This document shows positions 3,021 to 39,142 of a stretch of DNA of 64,000 nt, piece by piece. The notes beneath the pieces are model-generated. The model saw only the letters and a program-made list of their open reading frames with translations, was not told the DNA's origin and did no database searches. Position 1 is the stretch's first letter; each line of letters begins with the position of its first letter. This DNA comes from a virus: UHGV virus genome UHGV-0277504; one strand, 5' to 3'. The translations under genes were made by a program, and so were the position numbers.

Positions 3021-3076
3021 TTAAATCTGTCCTTTGTTAAAAAATATGTATAAAAGGTGGTTTATAAACCACCTTA

Positions 3077-3874
3077 TTAAACTCTTCTATATTGATTGGA
3101 GAAGATACTTAAATCTGTATTCATAACATTATTAAACTTACTTTCTACAGCTTCTCCTAATTCTTCAGAATTATTTTGATTACCTTGTACATTCACATTA
3201 ACTCTAACATTATTGTTATTATTCACGTTACTAGACATTGAATTACTATTAGAGCTTCTTGTAGGTAAAGGTGCTGTATTGTTAAGTAAAGCACTTGTCA
3301 CAGGACTTACAGGTTCTTGTGGTGCTGAGAATCTACCACCTTTACCTCCTTTAGCTCTTCCTCCTGTAGGAGACCAACCACCGTTAGGGTTATAGTCGCT
3401 CTTCCAGTTTTTATTATTAAAGAAAGCTAATAATTGGTCGTATCCATTATGAATGTTTCCATGTCCTTTTACTTTATAGTTGTTGAAAGTACTAGGAACA
3501 TATTGTAAAAGACCTTGTGCCTCATTACCGCCACTGTTTATATCTTTAATTTGTTGTTTTATTTTAGGGTCTCCACCAGATTCTTTTTGAATAAGACTTG
3601 CTATTCCGTCTACATCTTTATCTGATATTTTAACACCCATTGCTTTGGCGGCTTTTCTAATATCATCTTTCCATTTATCAGCTGATTTTTTCTTATCTCC
3701 ACCTGCTGAATCCCCTACGTCAGAGTCATCAGAACTACCTGAATCACTTCCTCCTCCGTCTAAAGATTTAGCATCATTTATTAATTGTTCAGCTCTATCT
3801 AATAAACTTTTATAAGTTTTAAGGTTTTTAGTCTCAGAAGCATTATTTTTCTCTCTGAGTTGTTCGGTAGTCAT
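3077..3874 (-). CDS. tail-associated lytic transglycosylase (SLT-domain) protein
   Basis: 265 aa; SLT-like motif (ESGGDP...GLLQYVPSTF); N-terminal LREKN + SDSG/D-rich linker; GGKGGRFS motif shared with the upstream paralog; strong RBS before ATG at 3874. Confidence 0.7.
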   Translation of the reverse strand: MTTEQLREKNNASETKNLKTYKSLLDRAEQLINDAKSLDGGGSDSGSSDDSDVGDSAGGDKKKSADKWKDDIRKAAKAMGVKISDKDVDGIASLIQKESGGDPKIKQQIKDINSGGNEAQGLLQYVPSTFNNYKVKGHGNIHNGYDQLLAFFNNKNWKSDYNPNGGWSPTGGRAKGGKGGRFSAPQEPVSPVTSALLNNTAPLPTRSSNSNSMSSNVNNNNNVRVNVNVQGNQNNSEELGEAVESKFNNVMNTDLSIFSNQYRRV

Positions 3875-25558: not shown

Positions 25559-26362
25559 TTAAACAAAAACATCATTATCACCTACAAAATTTTGAACTTC
25601 TTTTTTAGTCATTAAATATCTATCTTTAACTTTTTTAAAACCTAGATAATCTATATAATTAATAGCTTCTTTTAATTGTATATCATATATAGATATTGCC
25701 ATTTCATTATCTATACCTAGTTTTATAAGTTCAAATATAGAACGTAATCCTACTCCGCTAGATTCTGGTGAACTAATATATGATTCTAATTTTATTTCTT
25801 TGTCATATAAATTATATTCTGCTATACCTATAACATCCTCACCGTTATTGAATACTTTATAAATAGAAGATGTTTCTTTTAAATGAGATGTATTTACACC
25901 TTTATTTTTAAGTATAGACAAAGATGTAGCTAATCTTTCTGGATTTACTTTTTCATTTATACCACCATTATCTTCAACTGAAGAACCTATAGCTGAGTTA
26001 TTATTAGTTTCAGGTTGTTTATCTTGTTGCTCTTTATCTTTTGAATTTCCGTCTTCGTAAATAGTCATTTCTACTTCTTTGCCGTTTCTAATTACTTTAC
26101 GTTTAACTTTATTCAAATTAGATAAATCTTTATCTCCGCCTTTGGTTATTTTTTCAGTATTTGATTTACAAAACAATACCATATCATAAAAGCTATTAAA
26201 ACCATTTGGTTTGTATAAATGTTTATATTTTTTGTTTAATGTTTCTTCGTTATTAATAACTTCATCAAAACTAAAATATTTACCTGTAAGAAAGTATAGA
26301 TTATTTTCATCCATACTTTCATTATCTTTTTTCATTATATCATAAATAAACTCATTTGTCAA
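25559..26362 (-). CDS. hypothetical protein
   Basis: 267 aa. Confidence 0.5.
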   Translation of the reverse strand: MTNEFIYDIMKKDNESMDENNLYFLTGKYFSFDEVINNEETLNKKYKHLYKPNGFNSFYDMVLFCKSNTEKITKGGDKDLSNLNKVKRKVIRNGKEVEMTIYEDGNSKDKEQQDKQPETNNNSAIGSSVEDNGGINEKVNPERLATSLSILKNKGVNTSHLKETSSIYKVFNNGEDVIGIAEYNLYDKEIKLESYISSPESSGVGLRSIFELIKLGIDNEMAISIYDIQLKEAINYIDYLGFKKVKDRYLMTKKEVQNFVGDNDVFV

Positions 26363-26375
26363 ATTAAATCACTAC

Positions 26376-27146
26376 CTAATCTATATAATAGTTTGTATTA
26401 CTATTTCCTGAATTATAATTAGTAGTAACAAAAGTAGAATTAAACGCTGTACCATTTCCTTGTTGTATTAACTGTTGTATTCGTGTTAATCCGATATTTG
26501 CATATACACTTGCCTGTGCCCAGTGGTCGTCACCTTTACGTTTAATTACTTGATACATTTCTTCTTTTTTCTCGTCTTCCTCATCCATAATTAAAACATT
26601 TTGCCAATGTTTTAAATATGTTCTAAGGTCATCATCTACTTCTTGATACATACGTATATTTTTTGTTTTTAGTCCTTGGATATAAATCTTATTTTGCATA
26701 AGCTTATCAACAGTTACCGTATTATCTTTTTCATTAAATTTAGGTCGTAACTGTCCTGTAGAACGTGGACTGGAATTGTAAGTACATCCAAAAACTTTAT
26801 CTTCTCCAAAATGGTTTATAAGTTTTAGGACATTATTACCACTATCCCCATTATCTGCTATGATAATGTCTGGTTCATATTTAGAAATTTCCCATATAAT
26901 TGTTTCTAAATCAGCTTCAACCATATTAGGTCTTGTATTTTTCTTAACAGAAAATAATCTTATTAAGTCTTTTTTACCATCAGGCAATACACCATGGACT
27001 GTAACCCAGTGGTGATTTCCCCAATCAATTCCTACAGAAATATAAGAATAATTACCTCTGTTAAACATTTGTTTTTTAGCAACAGGTGATTTATTTTCAA
27101 ATACATCTTCTTCAAGAACACGCATTTTAACATCTTCATATGGCAT
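26376..27146 (-). CDS. terL: terminase large subunit, exon 4 (C-terminal nuclease domain)
   Basis: …ISVGIDWGNHHW…IIADNGDSGNN… RNase-H-like terminase nuclease motifs. Begins at ATG 27146 directly after omega-G 27147 of the upstream intron, in frame with exon 3. Confidence 0.8.
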   Translation of the reverse strand: MPYEDVKMRVLEEDVFENKSPVAKKQMFNRGNYSYISVGIDWGNHHWVTVHGVLPDGKKDLIRLFSVKKNTRPNMVEADLETIIWEISKYEPDIIIADNGDSGNNVLKLINHFGEDKVFGCTYNSSPRSTGQLRPKFNEKDNTVTVDKLMQNKIYIQGLKTKNIRMYQEVDDDLRTYLKHWQNVLIMDEEDEKKEEMYQVIKRKGDDHWAQASVYANIGLTRIQQLIQQGNGTAFNSTFVTTNYNSGNSNTNYYID

Positions 27147-33846: not shown

Positions 33847-33875
33847 TTGACATTTATCAAAAATAAGATTATAAT
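33847..33875 (+). promoter_or_regulatory. sigma-70-type promoter (TTGACA-17-TATAAT) with upstream AAAAGTG
   Basis: Exact consensus hexamers, 17-nt spacer. Confidence 0.65.
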
Positions 33876-33914: not shown

Positions 33915-34796
33915 ATGGAATTAATCAAAAAATTTAATTATGAAGATAATAAAGTAAGAGTTGTTGAAAAGAATGGAGAAATTTACTTTGTTGGTAAAGA
34001 TATAGCAAATATCTTAGGGTATACAAATTCAAGAAAAGCATTATTAGACCATGTCGATGAAGAAGATAAGCTGGTGTCACGAATCGTTACGGCAGGTCAA
34101 AATAGAAATATGATAATTATTAATGAATCAGGATTATATAGTTTAATATTTTCTTCAAAATTAGATAAAGCTAAAGAATTTAAACGATGGGTAACTAAAG
34201 AAGTATTACCTGATATTAGAAAATATGGAATGTATATTGATGATTCTTTTATCAAAACAATTATAGATAATCCTCAAAGTGCAAGAGAAGAAATGCTTAA
34301 GTATTTTAATGAATCTCAAAGATTACAAAAAGTAGTAAAAGACTTAGAACAAGAAAATGATATGTTAAGAGAACTAGAAAACGAAGTAGGTGTTTTAGAG
34401 AGTAAAGTAGAATTACTTTCAAATAAACCAAATAACTCAGATTGGAAAAAAGAAGCAAATAAAAGAGTTAGACAATTAACACCAAAATTAACAAGTATTA
34501 TATATCCTAATTTTGGTAAAGCATGGAATGAAGTATACAGAGAAATGTTATATTCAGAAAACATTAATATTAAATCTAAACATACAAGAAGATTAAAAAG
34601 AATGGAAAACAATAATGTATCTCAAAGTGAGATTAATAACACAACAATTTTGGATACAATTGGAACTGATGTAGAATATATTGACAAAATGTTCAATGCA
34701 ATATCTAACTTAGAACAGAGAAATATTAACTCAGAAAATAATTTTAATGAAAAACCTTTTTATGATTCAGGTAATTTTAGTGGTTTACTTATTTAA
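33915..34796 (+). CDS. Bro-N domain protein (anti-repressor-like)
   Basis: N-terminus VRVVEKNGEIYFVGKDIANILGY matches Bro-N/KilA-N fold motif. Confidence 0.65.
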   Translation: MELIKKFNYEDNKVRVVEKNGEIYFVGKDIANILGYTNSRKALLDHVDEEDKLVSRIVTAGQNRNMIIINESGLYSLIFSSKLDKAKEFKRWVTKEVLPDIRKYGMYIDDSFIKTIIDNPQSAREEMLKYFNESQRLQKVVKDLEQENDMLRELENEVGVLESKVELLSNKPNNSDWKKEANKRVRQLTPKLTSIIYPNFGKAWNEVYREMLYSENINIKSKHTRRLKRMENNNVSQSEINNTTILDTIGTDVEYIDKMFNAISNLEQRNINSENNFNEKPFYDSGNFSGLLI

Positions 34797-34809: not shown

Positions 34810-34838
34810 TTGACATTAACAATTAAACATGTTATGAT
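34810..34838 (+). promoter_or_regulatory. sigma-70-type promoter (AAAAAGTATTGACA-17-TATGAT)
   Basis: Consensus -35, 17-nt spacer. Confidence 0.6.
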
Positions 34839-34875: not shown

Positions 34876-35097
34876 ATGAGAAAACAAGTAATGGTATATT
34901 CAAAACTAAATTGTAAAGAATGTGGGAACCACTTTATGGTTCCTAGAAAAAGAGCAAAAAGAAGAGAAGAAGGTCATATCAAAGACTTATATTGTGTAAA
35001 ATGTAAAAAAACAACAAAACATATTGAGGATAACAGAAGTGAAACAGAAAAATTCTGGGATGAATTCCATTCAAATAGAAAATATCAAAAAAATTAA
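34876..35097 (+). CDS. zinc-ribbon protein
   Basis: 73 aa, CKECGN…CVKCKK. Confidence 0.5.
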   Translation: MRKQVMVYSKLNCKECGNHFMVPRKRAKRREEGHIKDLYCVKCKKTTKHIEDNRSETEKFWDEFHSNRKYQKN

Positions 35098-35127
35098 TAA
35101 AAAATTTAAAAAAGTTTTAAAATAAAC

Positions 35128-35156
35128 TTGACACAGGGTTATTTTTATGTTATGAT
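35128..35156 (+). promoter_or_regulatory. sigma-70-type promoter (TTGACA-17-TATGAT) driving the 35160-35990 non-coding region
   Basis: Consensus -35, 17-nt spacer. Confidence 0.6.
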
Positions 35157-35159
35157 ATA

Positions 35160-35990
35160 TGTATCAAATAAAACAAATCCCTTACACAACTGTTTTTTCA
35201 TTACGTTGTTTTCCAGTTCAAACAATAACAGCGTTTGCCTATAACTAATGATTAGACTATAAACAAATCAAGAGGAAATTAGTCTATTCCTCTAATATAA
35301 TTTTAATACAACTAAACATCTGAACATAGTGACTGAATAAGTGAGTGATGTCACTAAGGTGTAAGAATGTCTTAGGAAGCCTACTAAAGTGTGAGAACCT
35401 TTAGAGGTATCCTCAGAGGGATATTTATTCCGAAAGGATTGCTTAGCACTTGGATATAAGGATTATACGGTAGAGAGACTATCAGTGATGAATCACTAGT
35501 CAAGGTCTTAGCGGAATCTTGACTAGTTACGCTACTAAAATCATTTACGTGGTTGGAGCCTAGAAATAGGTTTGATAATGATTGTCTTTCGTACAAGTAG
35601 CACAAACCCACGATAAAGCTAAAGAAAACAAAAAATATATGTTATTTTAATTCTTCACATCGTGTGAAAGTTGGTAAGTAACTGTCCTTACCCCTATACT
35701 GTGGAAACACTCATAAAAGTGGACTATGGCTAGCTACCATATAGAACTTTCTATGACTAGGTTACCTAATAATAATTCTTGTATTTCAGGTTCCCCGTGA
35801 AAAGGGATATGTTTGGATGTTTAGTTGTATTATACAACTAACTTCTCTTTCATTTTAATATTCATATCAATGGTTTTTGACTCCTTTACCATTGATAGAG
35901 AGAAACCCCTTATAAGAACATATTCATTTGTACAAACAAACACCTCCTTATAAAAAACAAAAAAACTTATAAGGGGTTTTTACATACACA
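35160..35990 (+). ncRNA. candidate large structured non-coding RNA / intron-derived element
   Basis: ~830 nt without credible ORF, locally GC-richer with many hairpins; contains group-I-like GACUAUAA…UAGUCUAUUCC pair; ends with long-range stem CCCCTTATAAG…CTTATAAGGGG + TTTTT. Confidence 0.4.
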
Positions 35991-36085
35991 TAACCCTAAT
36001 AACCTGAATATAATTTGCTTGATATTTATATTCAAAAAAAATAAGGTAAGTACTTTTTAAAGGTTTTTGTCTCACCTATACATAA

Positions 36086-36451
36086 ATGAAAAAAGGAATT
36101 GTTATTGTGGCAAAGAAAAAAACATTAGCTCAAAAAACATATGAAGATACAGTAAAAGCTAGAAGATGGTTTGCAGGTACTCGAAATGAATTTAATACAG
36201 CAAGAGCAAAAAAGAAAAATACTGAATCTTTTTTAAAACAATCAAAAGAAGATATTAAAACAGCTAGTGAAAAAGGTAGATTTAGTTGTATATTGTATTA
36301 TAAAGTATTTAAGTTTAAAGAACCTGTAGAAGGGTATAATAAACAAGAAATATTATCAGCACTTAAAGAGTTGGATAAAGAAGGATTTAAAACAACATAT
36401 GAGGATACTCAAGATGGTGTATTAGTGAGTGCTAGATGGGATAACGAATAA
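36086..36451 (+). CDS. hypothetical protein
   Basis: 121 aa. Confidence 0.5.
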   Translation: MKKGIVIVAKKKTLAQKTYEDTVKARRWFAGTRNEFNTARAKKKNTESFLKQSKEDIKTASEKGRFSCILYYKVFKFKEPVEGYNKQEILSALKELDKEGFKTTYEDTQDGVLVSARWDNE

Positions 36452-36763: not shown

Positions 36764-37324
36764 ATGTCTAATAAAGATATGAAAAAACCTACTGTTGTAG
36801 GTGGTGTAAACTTATCCACACGTGTACGCAGTAAGACTTTTTGGGTATCACTTGTAGGTATACTAGTTGGTGTAGTTACTCAAGTAGGTACACTTTTTGG
36901 TCTTGATTTAGAAGACCAAGTAGGACAATACTCTGAATTAGCTACAGGTATTATTACAGCTTTAGGTATTTTAGGTGTTTTACAAGACCCTAATACTAAA
37001 GGAATTAAAGATAGTGGTATTGCACAAACATACACTTCTCGTAGAGATAGTAAAGACCCTGAACAAGCAATAGATTGGCAAAATAATACAGAATTTGATT
37101 TAGGTGTAAAGAAACCTCAAGAGTTTGATACTTCTGAATCTTTCTCTGATGATAGTGATGAAGAAGAAGTAGATTTAGAAGAAGAAGTAGCTAAAGATGA
37201 TTCTGTACAAGAAGACACAAATAAACCCCTTGGAGCTGGAAAAGGAGAGTCTGTAGACTCTATGAAAAACACACCTCTAAATGTAGGTAGTCAATCAGCT
37301 AAATCAAAAGGCGGTGAAAAATAA
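36764..37324 (+). CDS. holin
   Basis: 186 aa; N-terminal TM helices (FWVSLVGILVGVVTQVGTLFGL; ITALGILGVL), acidic C-terminus; immediately precedes the endolysin. Confidence 0.7.
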   Translation: MSNKDMKKPTVVGGVNLSTRVRSKTFWVSLVGILVGVVTQVGTLFGLDLEDQVGQYSELATGIITALGILGVLQDPNTKGIKDSGIAQTYTSRRDSKDPEQAIDWQNNTEFDLGVKKPQEFDTSESFSDDSDEEEVDLEEEVAKDDSVQEDTNKPLGAGKGESVDSMKNTPLNVGSQSAKSKGGEK

Positions 37325-37326
37325 TA

Positions 37327-38058
37327 ATGAAAACTAAAAAACAAGCTTTAAAATGGATTTTAAATACTATAGGTCAAGGTATAGATTGGGATAAAATGTA
37401 TGGGTTTCAATGTATGGATTTAGTTGTTGCTTATTTATATTACGTTACTGATGGGAAAATAGCAATGTGGGGAAATGCTATTGATGCTCCTAAAAATAAT
37501 TTTAAAGGTACTGCTAAAGTAATTAAAAATTACCCTGCTTTTAGACCTGAAGCAGGAGATATAGTAGTTTGGTCTTATGGTAATTTTAGTACTTACGGAC
37601 ATATTGCTGTAGTTATAGATGGAGACCCTTACGGTGACTTGCAGTATATCACAGTAGCTGAGCAAAATTGGAATGGTTTAGGACTATACAAACAAGAAGT
37701 TACTACAAAACGTATTCATAATTACGATGGTGTATCTCATTTCATAAGACCTAAGTTCAAAAAAACAGTTAAAAAAGAAGATAACACTCTTACAAAAGAA
37801 AAAAACAACAAAAAAACAAAAGGAAAAAAATTAAAAGTATCAACACAAAGAATAAACTACACTATGGATAAAAGAGGTTATAAACCTAAATTTGTTGTAA
37901 TACACAATGATGCTGGTAGTTCTTCTGCACAACAGTATGAACAAGGATTAAAAAATGCAGGATACAGTAGATATGCTCAAGGAGTAGCACATGCATACGC
38001 TTCTGATGGTTATGTGTGGGAAGCAATATCAGAAGATAGAATAGCTTGGCATACGGGT
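37327..38058 (+). CDS. endolysin exon 1 (CHAP domain + start of amidase_2 domain)
   Basis: CHAP motifs (FQCMDLV…GHIAVV); amidase start VVIHNDAG…AWHTG; exon ends at GGGU of P1. Confidence 0.8.
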
Positions 38059-38410
38059 AAATAGTTGCCCTGTTATATAGTAATGTATAATTAAAATTCT
38101 TTTAATTGACTGGGAGGCTAAGGCTATCAAGCTATGCTAATCAGCATCCAAGAATATTGTTTAAAAAAACTACTTGACAACATAATAACTTTTGGAAACA
38201 ATATTAAGGTTCAACGACTATCCTTATAGACGAGTGCCAATAAAAAATAAATCGTCAACAGGAGTAGGGCTCAAGTTAATGGAGTAGGTGAGAATCCTTT
38301 AAATCGAAATGGAGAACCCCTAAAATAATTAGGGTGAAGATATAGTCTAGACTTATAGGAAACTATGAGAAGTTCATAAGAGAACTGGTAGAGTGTTACG
38401 AACTCTATTG
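38059..38410 (+). ncRNA. group I intron in endolysin gene (352 nt, no ORF)
   Basis: P1 GGGU|AAAUAGUUGCCC; P2-like GUUAUAUAGUAAUGUAUAAUUAAAA; P7 GGUUCAACGACUAUCC; S-element GAAGAUAUAGUCUAGAC; P9 AGAGUGUUACGAACUCU; omega-G 38410. Confidence 0.8.
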
Positions 38411-39142
38411 AATATATCGGATGGAACAAATCCAGGAACAGGTAACTTTGAAGGATATGGAATTGAAGTTTGTCAATCTTTAGGAGATAGAAATACTTTC
38501 TTAAAAAATGAGCAAACTGTATTCCAATTTATTGCAGAAAAATTGCAAAAATGGAACTTACCTGCAAATAGAAATACCATCAGACTTCATAATGAATTTA
38601 TACAAACAGAATGTCCCCATGCTTCAGCATATTATCATGCAGGTATGAATACTAAAGTAGATGCTTATACAAAAGAAAGACAATTAAAAATAAAAGATTA
38701 TTTCATAAAACAAATTAGAGCATACATGAAAGGAAGTACACCTAAATCTACAGTAGTAAAATCTAGTAAAAGTAGTGGTTCTTTACCTAAGAAACAAGGT
38801 AAAAAACAAAAATTTAAATCAAATATTGGTAAAACATTCGACTTTAATGGATTAAATACCAATACTTGGGGTACTAAATGGTATTATGAAAATAATACAT
38901 TTACATGTAATGCTCGACAAGGTATCATAACAAGAGTAGGTAGTCCGTTTACAAACGCACCTCAAGCAGGTGTTTTATTCTACGGACAAACTGTAACATA
39001 TAATCAAGTAGCTGTTAATCCAAAAGAGCCATTTGTATGGATTTCATGGATTACAAATAATGGTACTGAAGTATGGATGCCTATTGAAGTCTTAGACAGT
39101 AATAATAAAATTATTGAGCAGTGGGGTACTTTTGGTTGGTAA
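38411..39142 (+). CDS. endolysin exon 2 (rest of amidase_2 + SH3b cell-wall binding domain)
   Basis: Spliced junction …AWHTG|NISDGTNPGTGNFEGYGIEVCQS restores a contiguous N-acetylmuramoyl-L-alanine amidase domain; C-terminal SH3b-like WYYENNTFTC…. Confidence 0.8.
   Translation, partial: NISDGTNPGTGNFEGYGIEVCQSLGDRNTFLKNEQTVFQFIAEKLQKWNLPANRNTIRLHNEFIQTECPHASAYYHAGMNTKVDAYTKERQLKIKDYFIKQIRAYMKGSTPKSTVVKSSKSSGSLPKKQGKKQKFKSNIGKTFDFNGLNTNTWGTKWYYENNTFTCNARQGIITRVGSPFTNAPQAGVLFYGQTVTYNQVAVNPKEPFVWISWITNNGTEVWMPIEVLDSNNKIIEQWGTFGW

What the first reader, a model, noticed from the sequence alone, without database searches (positions are those of the whole stretch)
35128..35990. Promoter-driven ~830-nt structured non-coding region between early genes
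A perfect TTGACA-17-TATGAT promoter fires into ~830 nt with no credible ORF; the only ORF, minus 35384..35611, has no RBS and odd composition. The region is locally GC-richer than its flanks, dense in hairpins, and contains a GACUAUAA…UAGUCUAUUCC pair reminiscent of group I P7. It closes with a long-range stem (CCCCTTATAAG…CTTATAAGGGG) plus a T-run. It could be a large regulatory ncRNA, a degenerate or ORF-less ribozyme, or an unusually long structured 5' leader of the 36086 gene.
Basis: seen in the sequence. Interest (0 to 1): 0.6.

Follow-up and report, generated by a model that had tools for sequence, protein, structure and literature searches.

The report
Divergent ROOL RNA in Staphylococcus phage
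The flagged non-coding stretch holds a roughly 530-nt, highly structured phage RNA that is a divergent member of the known ROOL family (large RNAs that self-assemble into cages and have no known function), matching the most abundant transcript of therapeutic phage K.

Summary
A consensus early promoter (35128-35156) leads into about 830 nt with no conserved ORF, higher GC and dense structure, ending in a long stem plus U-run.

The region is composite:
- a conserved leader (about 35163-35252)
- a Sepunavirus-specific hairpin (35253-35292)
- a 529-nt core (35304-35832)
- a variable 3' tail with a terminator

The core is a ROOL RNA. A narrow Rfam scan gives RF03087 over its full length, at 67.7 bits and E 1.9e-13. 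That is below Rfam's 99.1-bit cut-off, and wider scans missed it.

In 26 Twortvirinae homologues, 97.9% of pair cells are paired, against 37-41% in slid controls. Of 139 pairs, 97 carry compensatory changes.

The phage K orthologue (36.5 bits, full length) coincides with the published 'lncRNA2', one of the two most abundant phage K transcripts. Listeria phage A511 carries a bridging ROOL (87.5 bits).

Elements that contact neighbouring copies in solved ROOL structures appear conserved: L11-J11/9 complementarity and a palindromic loop.

This is not a group I intron, a 5' leader or a coding region. I rate it a new, divergent member of a known family. ROOL function remains unknown.

The parts
35128..35156 (+). 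Early sigma-70-type promoter P1 (TTGACA, 17 nt, TG-n-TATGAT). The inferred transcription start is near 35163.
   Evidence: 11 of 12 positions, extended-10 TG. The promoter sits at the same place after the Iro gene in all Twortvirinae homologues that have the leader; Baoshanvirus BS1 is arranged differently. The start site is inferred, not mapped.
35163..35252 (+). Conserved promoter-proximal leader (CCCUUACACA-ACUG-U-run-ACGUUGUUUU-CCAGU-AAACAAUAAC...). It may be a hairpin whose loop (CCAGU) pairs with the upstream ACUG.
   Evidence: The sequence is conserved across genera. The formal pair count is inconclusive: 80.6% paired, against up to 58% in slid controls. In phage K this unit is followed by its own annotated terminator.
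35253..35292 (+). Sepunavirus-specific spacer with two interleaved stems (UAGACUA/UAGUCUA and AGAGGAA/UUCCUCU). It occupies the slot where other genera carry the ROOL-specific promoter P2 (in phage K preceded by a terminator).
   Evidence: Alignment. PG-2021_23 shows compensatory changes in the first stem. The MFE fold favours the second stem. Function unknown.
35296..35301 (+). TATAAT hexamer just upstream of the core. It has no acceptable -35 box, so it is at best a weak -10-only promoter.
   Evidence: Read directly from the sequence. It was not called by the promoter scan. Speculative.
35304..35832 (+). ROOL RNA core, bounded by a 23-pair closing helix (35304-35329 with 35807-35832).
   Evidence: Rfam RF03087 matches 35310-35823 at 67.7 bits, E 1.9e-13, model positions 1-574 of 574. 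Covariation: 139 pairs, 97.9% paired, 97 pairs with changes on both sides. nhmmer finds a single copy in the window.
35510..35533 (+). Loop AGCG (35510-35513) of the long hairpin is complementary to CGCU (35530-35533), which lies 2 nt after that hairpin's base. This corresponds to the ROOL L11 / J11/9 contact.
   Evidence: All 26 sequences can pair, and two positions covary: AGCG/CGCU, AGUG/CACU, GGUG/CACC. A511 has GUAAGUA/UACUUAC and the Rfam consensus has GGCA/UGCC. The contact is described as intermolecular in Efa ROOL (PMC12990946). Intramolecular pairing looks sterically implausible (inference).
35548..35612 (+). Conserved central domain. CGUGG (35548-35552) pairs with CCACG (35608-35612), crossing the [[ ]] helix as a pseudoknot. 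The domain also holds a GAAA-tetraloop hairpin and the motif GUACAAGUAGCACAAA.
   Evidence: 5 pairs, 3 with compensatory changes, 100% paired. The same motifs occur in the ROOL consensus and in A511.
35613..35653 (+). A-rich variable linker, closed by the helix GCAC(35600-35603)/GUGU(35662-35665).
   Evidence: Length and sequence are unconserved (columns 322-399 of A2). It lies at the same position as the ROOL linker. The closing helix covaries C-G to U-A in 14 versus 9 sequences. In ROOL cages the linker is disordered and sits inside the cage (PMC12286853).
35725..35741 (+). Hairpin UAUGG/CCAUA with the 7-nt loop CUAGCUA (35730-35736), which contains the palindrome UAGCUA. It is a candidate self-kissing loop, like ROOL L15-L15''.
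   Evidence: Stem covariation (helix 19). The loop is palindromic in 23 of 26 homologues and in A511: UAGCUA, UUGCAA or AGCU. It is not palindromic in the Twort clade, which has UCGCU. The match to L15 is my inference from PMC12990946.
35835..35981 (+). Lineage-variable 3' tail. It has a hairpin at 35865-35874/35888-35897, a long stem at 35905-35916/35966-35977 and a U-run at 35977-35981, which together look like an intrinsic terminator. It also contains CU-rich CUCCUU / CCUCCUU motifs.
   Evidence: Fold (z = -5.7). The tail differs or is absent in other genera.
34876..35097 (+). Upstream gene for a 73-aa C4 zinc-ribbon protein, annotated elsewhere as 'Iro / ribosome associated inhibitor A; zinc finger'. 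It is a conserved neighbour of ROOL in Twortvirinae and in Listeria phage A511.
   Evidence: It is 41% identical to A511 gp58, E 4e-18. No Pfam family reaches its cut-off. Any functional link is speculative.

Best explanation
Window 35304-35832 (+) encodes a divergent ROOL RNA. ROOL is a roughly 530-nt, protein-free, highly structured phage RNA. This copy is the Sepunavirus orthologue of 'lncRNA2' of phage K and vB_SauM-515A1.

Transcription (inferred). In this phage the RNA has lost the dedicated promoter that other genera place directly upstream. It is most likely made by read-through from early promoter P1 (35128-35156), through a conserved leader and a lineage-specific hairpin. Transcription would end at the stem plus U-run at 35905-35981.

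Mature form (inferred). The stable species is probably the core held by the 23-pair terminal helix.

Mode of action (inferred from family membership). By homology with solved ROOL structures, the monomer should fold into a flat multi-junction body. Copies should then join into a closed homo-oligomer, a cage of about 6-8 copies, through RNA-RNA contacts. Two such contact elements appear conserved here: L11 with J11/9, and a palindromic loop. The variable A-rich linker would face the interior.

What is shown: homology, secondary structure, and conservation of these elements. What is inferred: transcription in this phage, processing, and oligomerisation.

The biological role of ROOL is unknown in any system. 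My best guess is an abundant structural RNA that sequesters or encloses a translation-related component during infection. The grounds are its abundance and its genomic link to tRNA genes.

Sub-claim confidences: ROOL identity about 0.9; expressed as a discrete abundant RNA in this phage about 0.75; forms a homo-oligomeric cage about 0.5.
For: - Rfam match: ROOL RF03087 matches the window over its full length (35310-35823, 67.7 bits, E 1.9e-13).
- Structure from 26 homologues, derived independently of Rfam: 139 pairs, 97.9% of cells paired against 37-41% in slid controls, 97 pairs with changes on both sides against 19-30, covariation score 0.564 against 0.07-0.08, and 0 of 500 shuffles as high (RNAalifold).
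- Agreement with the ROOL model: 60 pairs are identical. Most of the remaining pairs belong to the same helices shifted by one register.
- Further ROOL-model helices covary: the linker-closing helix and the hairpin after GUGAAAGUU.
- Bridging homologue: Listeria phage A511 carries a ROOL at 87.5 bits, E 1e-17. The Staphylococcus-phage profile hits that same locus at E 2.5e-6.
- Phage K: ROOL matches at NC_005880 38,019-38,584 (36.5 bits, E 8.6e-6, full length). This coincides with RNA-seq lncRNA2 at 38,024-38,566. lncRNA1 and lncRNA2 together take 27% of phage reads (PMC11598898; also PMC7698491 and PMC9241854).
- No conserved ORF.
- Conserved synteny of Iro, then ROOL, then tRNAs (absent in some genera), then holin and endolysin.
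- Literature on ROOL cages and their contacts: PMC12286853 and PMC12990946.
Against: - The score is below Rfam's curated cut-off of 99.1 bits. The gathering scan of the whole window and two wider E-value scans returned nothing. The match appears only when the search filters are relaxed by giving a short stretch.
- There is no expression data for any Sepunavirus. The SEP1 RNA-seq paper does not mention such an RNA.
- This genus lacks the dedicated promoter and the adjacent tRNAs.
- The short hairpin P10 of the ROOL model is absent here, and the Twort clade lacks the palindromic loop. Stoichiometry, or even assembly itself, may therefore differ.
- My matching of elements to named ROOL contacts comes from text descriptions, not from coordinates.
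Confidence: 0.85

Rival explanations
1. A separate, new class of large structured phage RNA that only resembles ROOL (through convergence or chance motif sharing) and is not a true homologue.
For: The score is below Rfam's gathering cut-off. Default and 1.6-kb scans found nothing. Phage K scores only 36.5 bits. The P10 element is missing and some register shifts exist.
Against: The match runs end to end (model 1-574) at E 1.9e-13. Helix order, nesting, linker position and signature motifs are the same: UGAA-hairpin, GAAA hairpin followed by AUAA, GUAcAAGUAGC, GUGAAAGUUGG, and the G-C-centred loop. An intermediate member exists: A511 at 87.5 bits is also hit by the Staphylococcus-phage profile.
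Confidence: 0.06
2. A long structured 5' leader or cis-regulator of the downstream protein gene at 36086.
For: Same strand, no intervening strong promoter, and P1 is the nearest consensus promoter.
Against: A stem plus U-run precedes the gene. The gene downstream of the RNA differs between genera: tRNAs in phage K, other genes in Twort and the SA11-like phage. The RNA is conserved while its downstream partner is not. In phage K it accumulates as a discrete species far above its downstream neighbours (PMC11598898).
Confidence: 0.03
3. A self-splicing intron remnant or another ribozyme, as the first reader's group I idea suggested.
For: It is large, conserved and pseudoknotted, with GNRA loops. 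Group I introns do occur in this phage group; the phage K endolysin intron scores 33.4 bits.
Against: No group I or II, RNase P or small-ribozyme model matches at E up to 10. There are no flanking exons or an interrupted gene. The 'P7-like' pair lies outside the conserved core. No catalytic activity of ROOL is described in the papers read here.
Confidence: 0.03
4. The region encodes one or more small proteins, for example the minus-strand 75-aa ORF or mini-ORFs next to the SD-like motifs in the tail.
For: Several submitters annotated short ORFs here. Sequences reading AAGGAGG on the minus strand occur in the tail.
Against: No ORF is conserved in position or frame. Stops and frame-breaking indels appear even in close relatives. 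Substitutions follow base-pairing rather than codon periodicity.
Confidence: 0.02

Closest known systems
ROOL RNA (Rfam RF03087; Weinberg et al. 2017; cryo-EM structures 2025)
   Same: Full-length CM match. It shares the closing helix, the nested long-range helices, the GAAA hairpin, the signature motifs, a variable internal linker, L11-J11/9 complementarity and a phage origin. Relatives place it next to tRNA genes and express it at very high levels.
   Different: It scores 67.7 bits, below the 99.1-bit gathering score. It lacks the short P10 hairpin. It sits in strictly lytic Herelleviridae myophages rather than the prophages and megaplasmids studied so far. In this genus it has no adjacent tRNAs and no dedicated promoter.
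Kayvirus 'lncRNA2' (vB_SauM-515A1; phage K), called lnc001/lnc002 in Finstrlova et al. 2022
   Same: Orthologous: same synteny after the Iro gene, aligned end to end in A1/A2, nhmmer 478 bits for phage K. The ROOL hit in phage K coincides with the RNA-seq boundaries.
   Different: Phage K has its own early promoter directly upstream, a terminator between the leader and that promoter, a 36-nt extra hairpin, and three tRNAs downstream. The papers describe it only as an abundant transcript of unknown function that resembles ROOL and GOLLD by location and abundance.
Highly transcribed non-coding region of Listeria P100-like phage CKA15 (26,236-26,727), and the matching A511 locus
   Same: A511 26196-26747 is a ROOL at 87.5 bits. 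It shares the closing helix, central domain, GUAGCUC loop and an Iro-like neighbouring gene.
   Different: It belongs to a different subfamily (Jasinkavirinae). The gene order is reversed: tRNA, then ROOL, then Iro. The CKA15 authors proposed Y RNAs or sRNAs rather than ROOL (PMC12282133). The CKA15-to-A511 match rests on coordinates and synteny and was not aligned.
GOLLD RNA (RF01998)
   Same: A large ornate phage RNA found near tRNAs, abundant during lysis, with a variable internal linker, forming RNA-only cages.
   Different: No CM match at E up to 10. Sequence and fold are unrelated.

Membership tests
ROOL RNA (RF03087) | Statistically significant, full-length match to the family covariance model | tested here: met
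   Window 35310-35823: 67.7 bits, E 1.9e-13, model 1-574 of 574. A511: 87.5 bits. Phage K: 36.5 bits, E 8.6e-6.
ROOL RNA (RF03087) | Score reaches Rfam's curated gathering cut-off (99.1 bits). This is an operational criterion, not a biological one. | tested here: not met
   67.7 bits is below 99.1. Nothing was returned by the gathering scan. This is why the RNA is unannotated, and why I file it as a divergent member rather than a typical one.
ROOL RNA (RF03087) | Family secondary structure: terminal closing helix, two nested long-range helices, multi-junction body, supported by covariation | tested here: met
   Independent RNAalifold and pair counts on 26 homologues. 60 pairs are identical to the mapped ROOL model, and most others are the same helices shifted by one register. 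Extra model helices covary.
ROOL RNA (RF03087) | Unconserved internal linker between the AGUAGC... and ...GUGAAAG segments | tested here: met
   Columns 322-399 of A2 vary in length and sequence. The position is the same in the CM alignment.
ROOL RNA (RF03087) | Covarying loop-to-junction complementarity (L11 with J11/9) that bridges protomers | tested here: met
   35510-35513 with 35530-35533: 26 of 26 sequences can pair and 2 positions covary. A511 and the Rfam consensus are also complementary. That the contact is intermolecular is taken from PMC12990946 and my steric reasoning; it was not tested.
ROOL RNA (RF03087) | Short hairpin P10 between the P9 5' strand and P11 | tested here: not met
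   Only 5 nt separate these elements, and the CM alignment shows P10 deleted. The literature says P10 (the stem Kretsch et al. appear to number P7) varies within the family and tunes stoichiometry. It is therefore not strictly defining.
ROOL RNA (RF03087) | Phage or prophage location near tRNA genes | tested here: inconclusive
   The location is phage: yes. There are no tRNAs anywhere in this 64-kb window. Orthologues in phage K, S24, 184DA, KMM1, ESa1, CF5 and A511 are each followed within about 0.1-0.5 kb (A511: directly preceded) by tRNA genes.
ROOL RNA (RF03087) | Very high cellular abundance | not testable with these tools
   Shown only for the Kayvirus orthologues by published RNA-seq.
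ROOL RNA (RF03087) | RNA-only homo-oligomeric cage (hexamer or octamer) | not testable with these tools
   Requires native gel, SEC-MALS or cryo-EM of the transcript.
GOLLD RNA (RF01998) | Match to the family covariance model | tested here: not met
   No hit at E up to 10.
Group I intron (RF00028) | Match to the family covariance model, and an interrupted host gene | tested here: not met
   No hit in the region. The same model does detect the phage K endolysin intron. There are no flanking exons.

The most novel reading that the evidence does not exclude
In Herelleviridae, ROOL may be one part of a conserved three-part module with the adjacent zinc-ribbon protein ('Iro') and phage tRNAs. The RNA cage or an RNA-protein complex would then act on tRNAs or ribosomes during host takeover. 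In Sepunavirus its dose would be set by the conserved promoter-proximal leader acting as a read-through attenuator.
Probability: 0.12. Interest if true: 0.75.

Novelty: new member of a known kind. Interest (0 to 1): 0.45.

Why it matters
ROOL has been solved by cryo-EM as an RNA-only cage, yet it has no known function and no known partner.

Placing the most abundant transcript of phage K-type therapeutic phages, and the equivalent RNA of Listeria P100/A511-type biocontrol phages, in the ROOL family gives the question a workable system. These are virulent phages with an existing time-resolved transcriptome.

It also shows that Rfam's ROOL cut-off and the default search filters miss a whole clade. 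About 280 Staphylococcus and Mammaliicoccus phage records contain this RNA, unannotated or mis-annotated as small ORFs.

Finally, it gives phage-therapy genome annotators a name for a conserved 'empty' region.

Tried and rejected
- Rfam gathering scan of the window, and E-value scans of 1.6 kb and of five homologous loci, found nothing. For a long time this pointed to a new family. Only the detour through Listeria phage A511 and a 551-nt scan exposed ROOL.
- Group I/II intron idea: rejected.
- Coding potential: rejected.
- Relation to phage K lncRNA1: no sequence similarity, and lncRNA1 is not detectable in this window by blastn.
- Motif scans for relatives outside Herelleviridae gave only Twortvirinae. 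Results were 10 loci in viral contigs, 2 in metagenomes and 0 in bacterial genomes. A looser motif gave 49 loci, of which only two new ones were real.
- Testing whether Iro-like genes sit beside ROOL outside Herelleviridae: the only non-Herelleviridae Iro-like loci were weak and had no ROOL-like sequence within 3 kb. This is uninformative.
- Leader pseudoknot model: the pair count was inconclusive, partly because the alignment is inconsistent in the Twort and BS1 clades.
- The hairpin UUCA/UGAA (35654-35657/35665-35668) from RNAalifold never varies and conflicts with the covarying ROOL linker-closing helix. I dropped it in favour of that helix.
- I did not build my own covariance model. The full RNA exceeds the 400-column limit, and the Rfam result made it unnecessary.

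Full report
**What the window is.** The region 35100-36085 is 99-99.8% identical to Staphylococcus epidermidis myophages of the genus Sepunavirus, such as vB_SepM_BE04, phiIPLA-C1C, Quidividi and Terranova. Local gene order on the + strand is:
- a BRO-N/antirepressor-like gene (33915-34796)
- a 73-aa zinc-ribbon gene (34876-35097), annotated elsewhere as 'Iro / ribosome associated inhibitor A; zinc finger'
- the flagged non-coding stretch
- small genes, then holin (36764-37324) and endolysin (from 37327)

**Checking the observation.**
- The promoter TTGACA-17-TATGAT with an extended-10 TG is at 35128-35156. It is one of three near-consensus promoters in 1.3 kb.
- No ORF above 75 aa lies between 35100 and 36085.
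- GC rises to 0.32-0.375 against 0.22-0.27 in the flanks.
- The 3' tail folds into a hairpin plus a 12-bp stem (35905-35916/35966-35977) followed by UUUUU. The fold is -32 kcal/mol with z = -5.7.
- The minus-strand ORF 35384-35611 is not conserved. The same frame has 2-3 stops in Sepunavirus relatives that are 82% identical. Every frame has at least 2 stops in the Kayvirus-type homologues, and segment lengths differ by non-multiples of three.

**Conservation and anatomy.** blastn finds the stretch in 271-280 phage records. All but one are Staphylococcus or Mammaliicoccus Twort-like phages; the exception, a faecal-metagenome phage contig, matches only the promoter. Window positions 35102-35832 align at 67-71% identity to other genera. 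A MAFFT alignment of 18 phages shows four modules.
1. Promoter P1 and a conserved leader of about 90 nt are present in all aligned genera except Baoshanvirus BS1, where the leader motif lies downstream of ROOL.
2. A spacer follows. In every genus except Sepunavirus (and BS1, which is arranged differently) it contains a second consensus promoter placed directly before the core. In phage K an annotated terminator lies between the leader and that promoter.
3. The core runs 35304-35832.
4. A 3' tail follows that differs between genera and is absent in an SA11-like phage.

The window contains no tRNA gene. In phage K, S24, 184DA, KMM1, ESa1 and CF5 the core is followed within about 0.1-0.5 kb by tRNA genes.

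**The core is a structured RNA.**
- RNAalifold on 25 sequences predicted 131 pairs, 85 of them with compensatory double changes.
- I added a divergent SA11-like member found by nhmmer and two crossing helices found by a covariation scan. The resulting structure has 139 pairs in 21 helices.
- In that structure 97.9% of cells are paired, against 37-41% when partners are slid by 1-3 columns.
- 97 pairs carry changes on both sides, against 19-30 in the slid controls.
- The covariation score is 0.564, against 0.07-0.08. None of 500 shuffles reached the observed values.
- The 5' and 3' ends form a 23-pair helix. In the Baoshanvirus clade this helix is almost entirely rewritten by compensatory changes.

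**Link to published RNAs.** In phage K the same locus lies between gp191 (Iro) and tRNA-Asp. It is the 'lncRNA2' of three RNA-seq studies.
- In vB_SauM-515A1 it is 525 nt, takes 8.4% of counts and has its own early promoter (PMC7698491).
- In phage K it appears as lnc001/lnc002 (PMC9241854).
- In a later phage K study it spans 38,024-38,566. Together with lncRNA1 it takes 27% of phage reads, is detectable from 2 min, and has unknown function (PMC11598898).

Those papers note a resemblance to ROOL and GOLLD only by tRNA proximity and abundance. I found no paper that assigns homology. Subscription journals are not covered by the search.

**Identification as ROOL.** The first Rfam scans were negative.
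- A paper on a P100-like Listeria phage described a 490-nt highly transcribed non-coding region (PMC12282133), so I fetched Listeria phage A511.
- A511 has a 660-nt gap between tRNA-Pro and an Iro-like gene.
- The Staphylococcus-phage profile hits that gap at E 2.5e-6.
- Rfam calls the gap ROOL at 87.5 bits, E 1e-17, full length.
- Rescanning only 551 nt of the window, which relaxes the search filters, gave ROOL at 35310-35823. The score is 67.7 bits, E 1.9e-13, model positions 1-574 of 574.
- The phage K RNA gave 36.5 bits, E 8.6e-6, full length, at 38,019-38,584.

All three scores are below Rfam's 99.1-bit gathering cut-off, which explains the missing annotation.

I mapped the ROOL consensus pairs onto the window. 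123 pairs have both residues present, and 99 of these are canonical. 60 are identical to my independent structure. Most of the rest are the same helices shifted by one register. Two ROOL-model helices that RNAalifold missed also covary:
- the linker-closing helix GCAC/GUGU, which becomes GCAU/AUGU (14 versus 9 sequences)
- the hairpin GGUAAG/CUUACC, which becomes AUUAAC/GUUAAU and other variants

**How it probably works.** Solved ROOLs are RNA-only hexamers or octamers. They are held together by loop-junction and loop-loop pairs, and their unconserved linker sits inside the cage (PMC12286853; PMC12990946). Three features here fit that picture.
- The loop AGCG (35510-35513) of the 13-bp hairpin is complementary to CGCU (35530-35533), only 2 nt beyond the hairpin's base. 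The two covary, appearing as AGUG/CACU and GGUG/CACC in other clades, GUAAGUA/UACUUAC in A511, and GGCA/UGCC in the Rfam consensus. That geometry cannot close within one molecule. It matches the 'J11/9-L11 prime' contact between protomers.
- The 7-nt loop at 35730-35736 contains UAGCUA. A palindrome is kept as UUGCAA or AGCU in 23 of 26 homologues and in A511. This fits a self-kissing loop of the kind described for L15. The Twort clade is an exception.
- An A-rich, unconserved linker (35613-35653) sits where the ROOL linker sits.

The short P10 hairpin is absent. In Lactobacillus ROOL a shortened P10 changes the stoichiometry, so the copy number here is open. All of this is inference from sequence. 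Nothing was measured.

**Expression in this phage.** Expression is inferred. With the dedicated promoter missing, P1 read-through is the simplest route. A TATAAT hexamer at 35296-35301 without a -35 box is a weak alternative. The leader is strongly conserved in sequence, but my structural model for it (a hairpin plus loop-upstream pairing) gave an inconclusive pair count. In phage K the leader is followed by its own terminator. It may therefore be a separate small RNA or an attenuator. This is unresolved.

**Verdict.** The element is a divergent member of a known family, and its biological role is still unknown.

Its value is practical. It identifies the dominant non-coding transcript of two groups of applied phages as ROOL. 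It also shows that current ROOL annotation misses the Herelleviridae.

Noticed in passing
window 34876-35097; L071 (A511) 25611-25820; L007 (phage K) 4334-4552: A small C4 zinc-ribbon gene ('Iro / ribosome associated inhibitor A') lies next to ROOL in Twortvirinae and in Listeria phages A511 and P100, although the gene order is rearranged. The two proteins are 41% identical (E 4e-18). No Pfam family reaches its cut-off. It could be a ROOL partner or simply retained synteny.
   Followed up: partly
L071 (A511, NC_009811) 25837-25907, minus strand: Rfam finds a tRNA (52.5 bits) that is not annotated in the record. It overlaps the annotated N-terminus of gp58. The alignment suggests the real gp58 starts about 37 codons later, at MVKTVQ.
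   Followed up: partly
L031 (phage K, NC_005880 12800-15200) 833-969, minus strand: The 3' part of phage K's other abundant RNA, lncRNA1, matches the DUF3800-I RNA motif (RF02969) at 43.4 bits, just under the 44.2-bit cut-off. lncRNA1 has no sequence similarity to ROOL/lncRNA2 and was not found in this window.
   Followed up: partly
L014 (phiSA_BS1) about 3050-3400: In Baoshanvirus the conserved 'leader' motif (…CUGUUUUCCAGUAUAAAACAAUAAC…) lies downstream of ROOL rather than upstream. It is followed by sequence that by eye resembles phage K lncRNA1 (…AAGCUUAAU..UAGUUUUAA.AAUAAAGAGUAG.UAAUUG…). The two abundant RNAs may therefore be adjacent there.
   Followed up: no
window 35845-35950: The 3' tail carries several CU-rich motifs (UUCUCUUUC, CUCCUUU, CACCUCCUU) that resemble the 3' end of 16S rRNA. 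Phage K's tail has more, including CACCUCCUUUC. On the minus strand they read as Shine-Dalgarno sequences, but no conserved ORF follows them.
   Followed up: partly
window 33847-33875, 34810-34838, 35128-35156: Three near-consensus early promoters (TTGACA-17-TATAAT or TATGAT) lie within 1.3 kb, each in front of a very short transcription unit. This is typical of the early region of these phages.
   Followed up: no
A2 columns 450-485 (phage K, ESa1, EW36, S24, SA11-like): A hairpin of about 36 nt (…UAAACUUAUUACCGUUUUACGGUUUGUAAGU…) is inserted into ROOL in some Kayvirus-type phages and absent in close relatives. It is a lineage-specific expansion in a region the window lacks.
   Followed up: no
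Records MH321490, MH542234, MH321491, OQ355702/3, PP931174, OR885926: Several GenBank records annotate 2-4 short 'hypothetical protein' or 'putative membrane protein' ORFs across the ROOL locus. These are almost certainly mis-annotations.
   Followed up: partly
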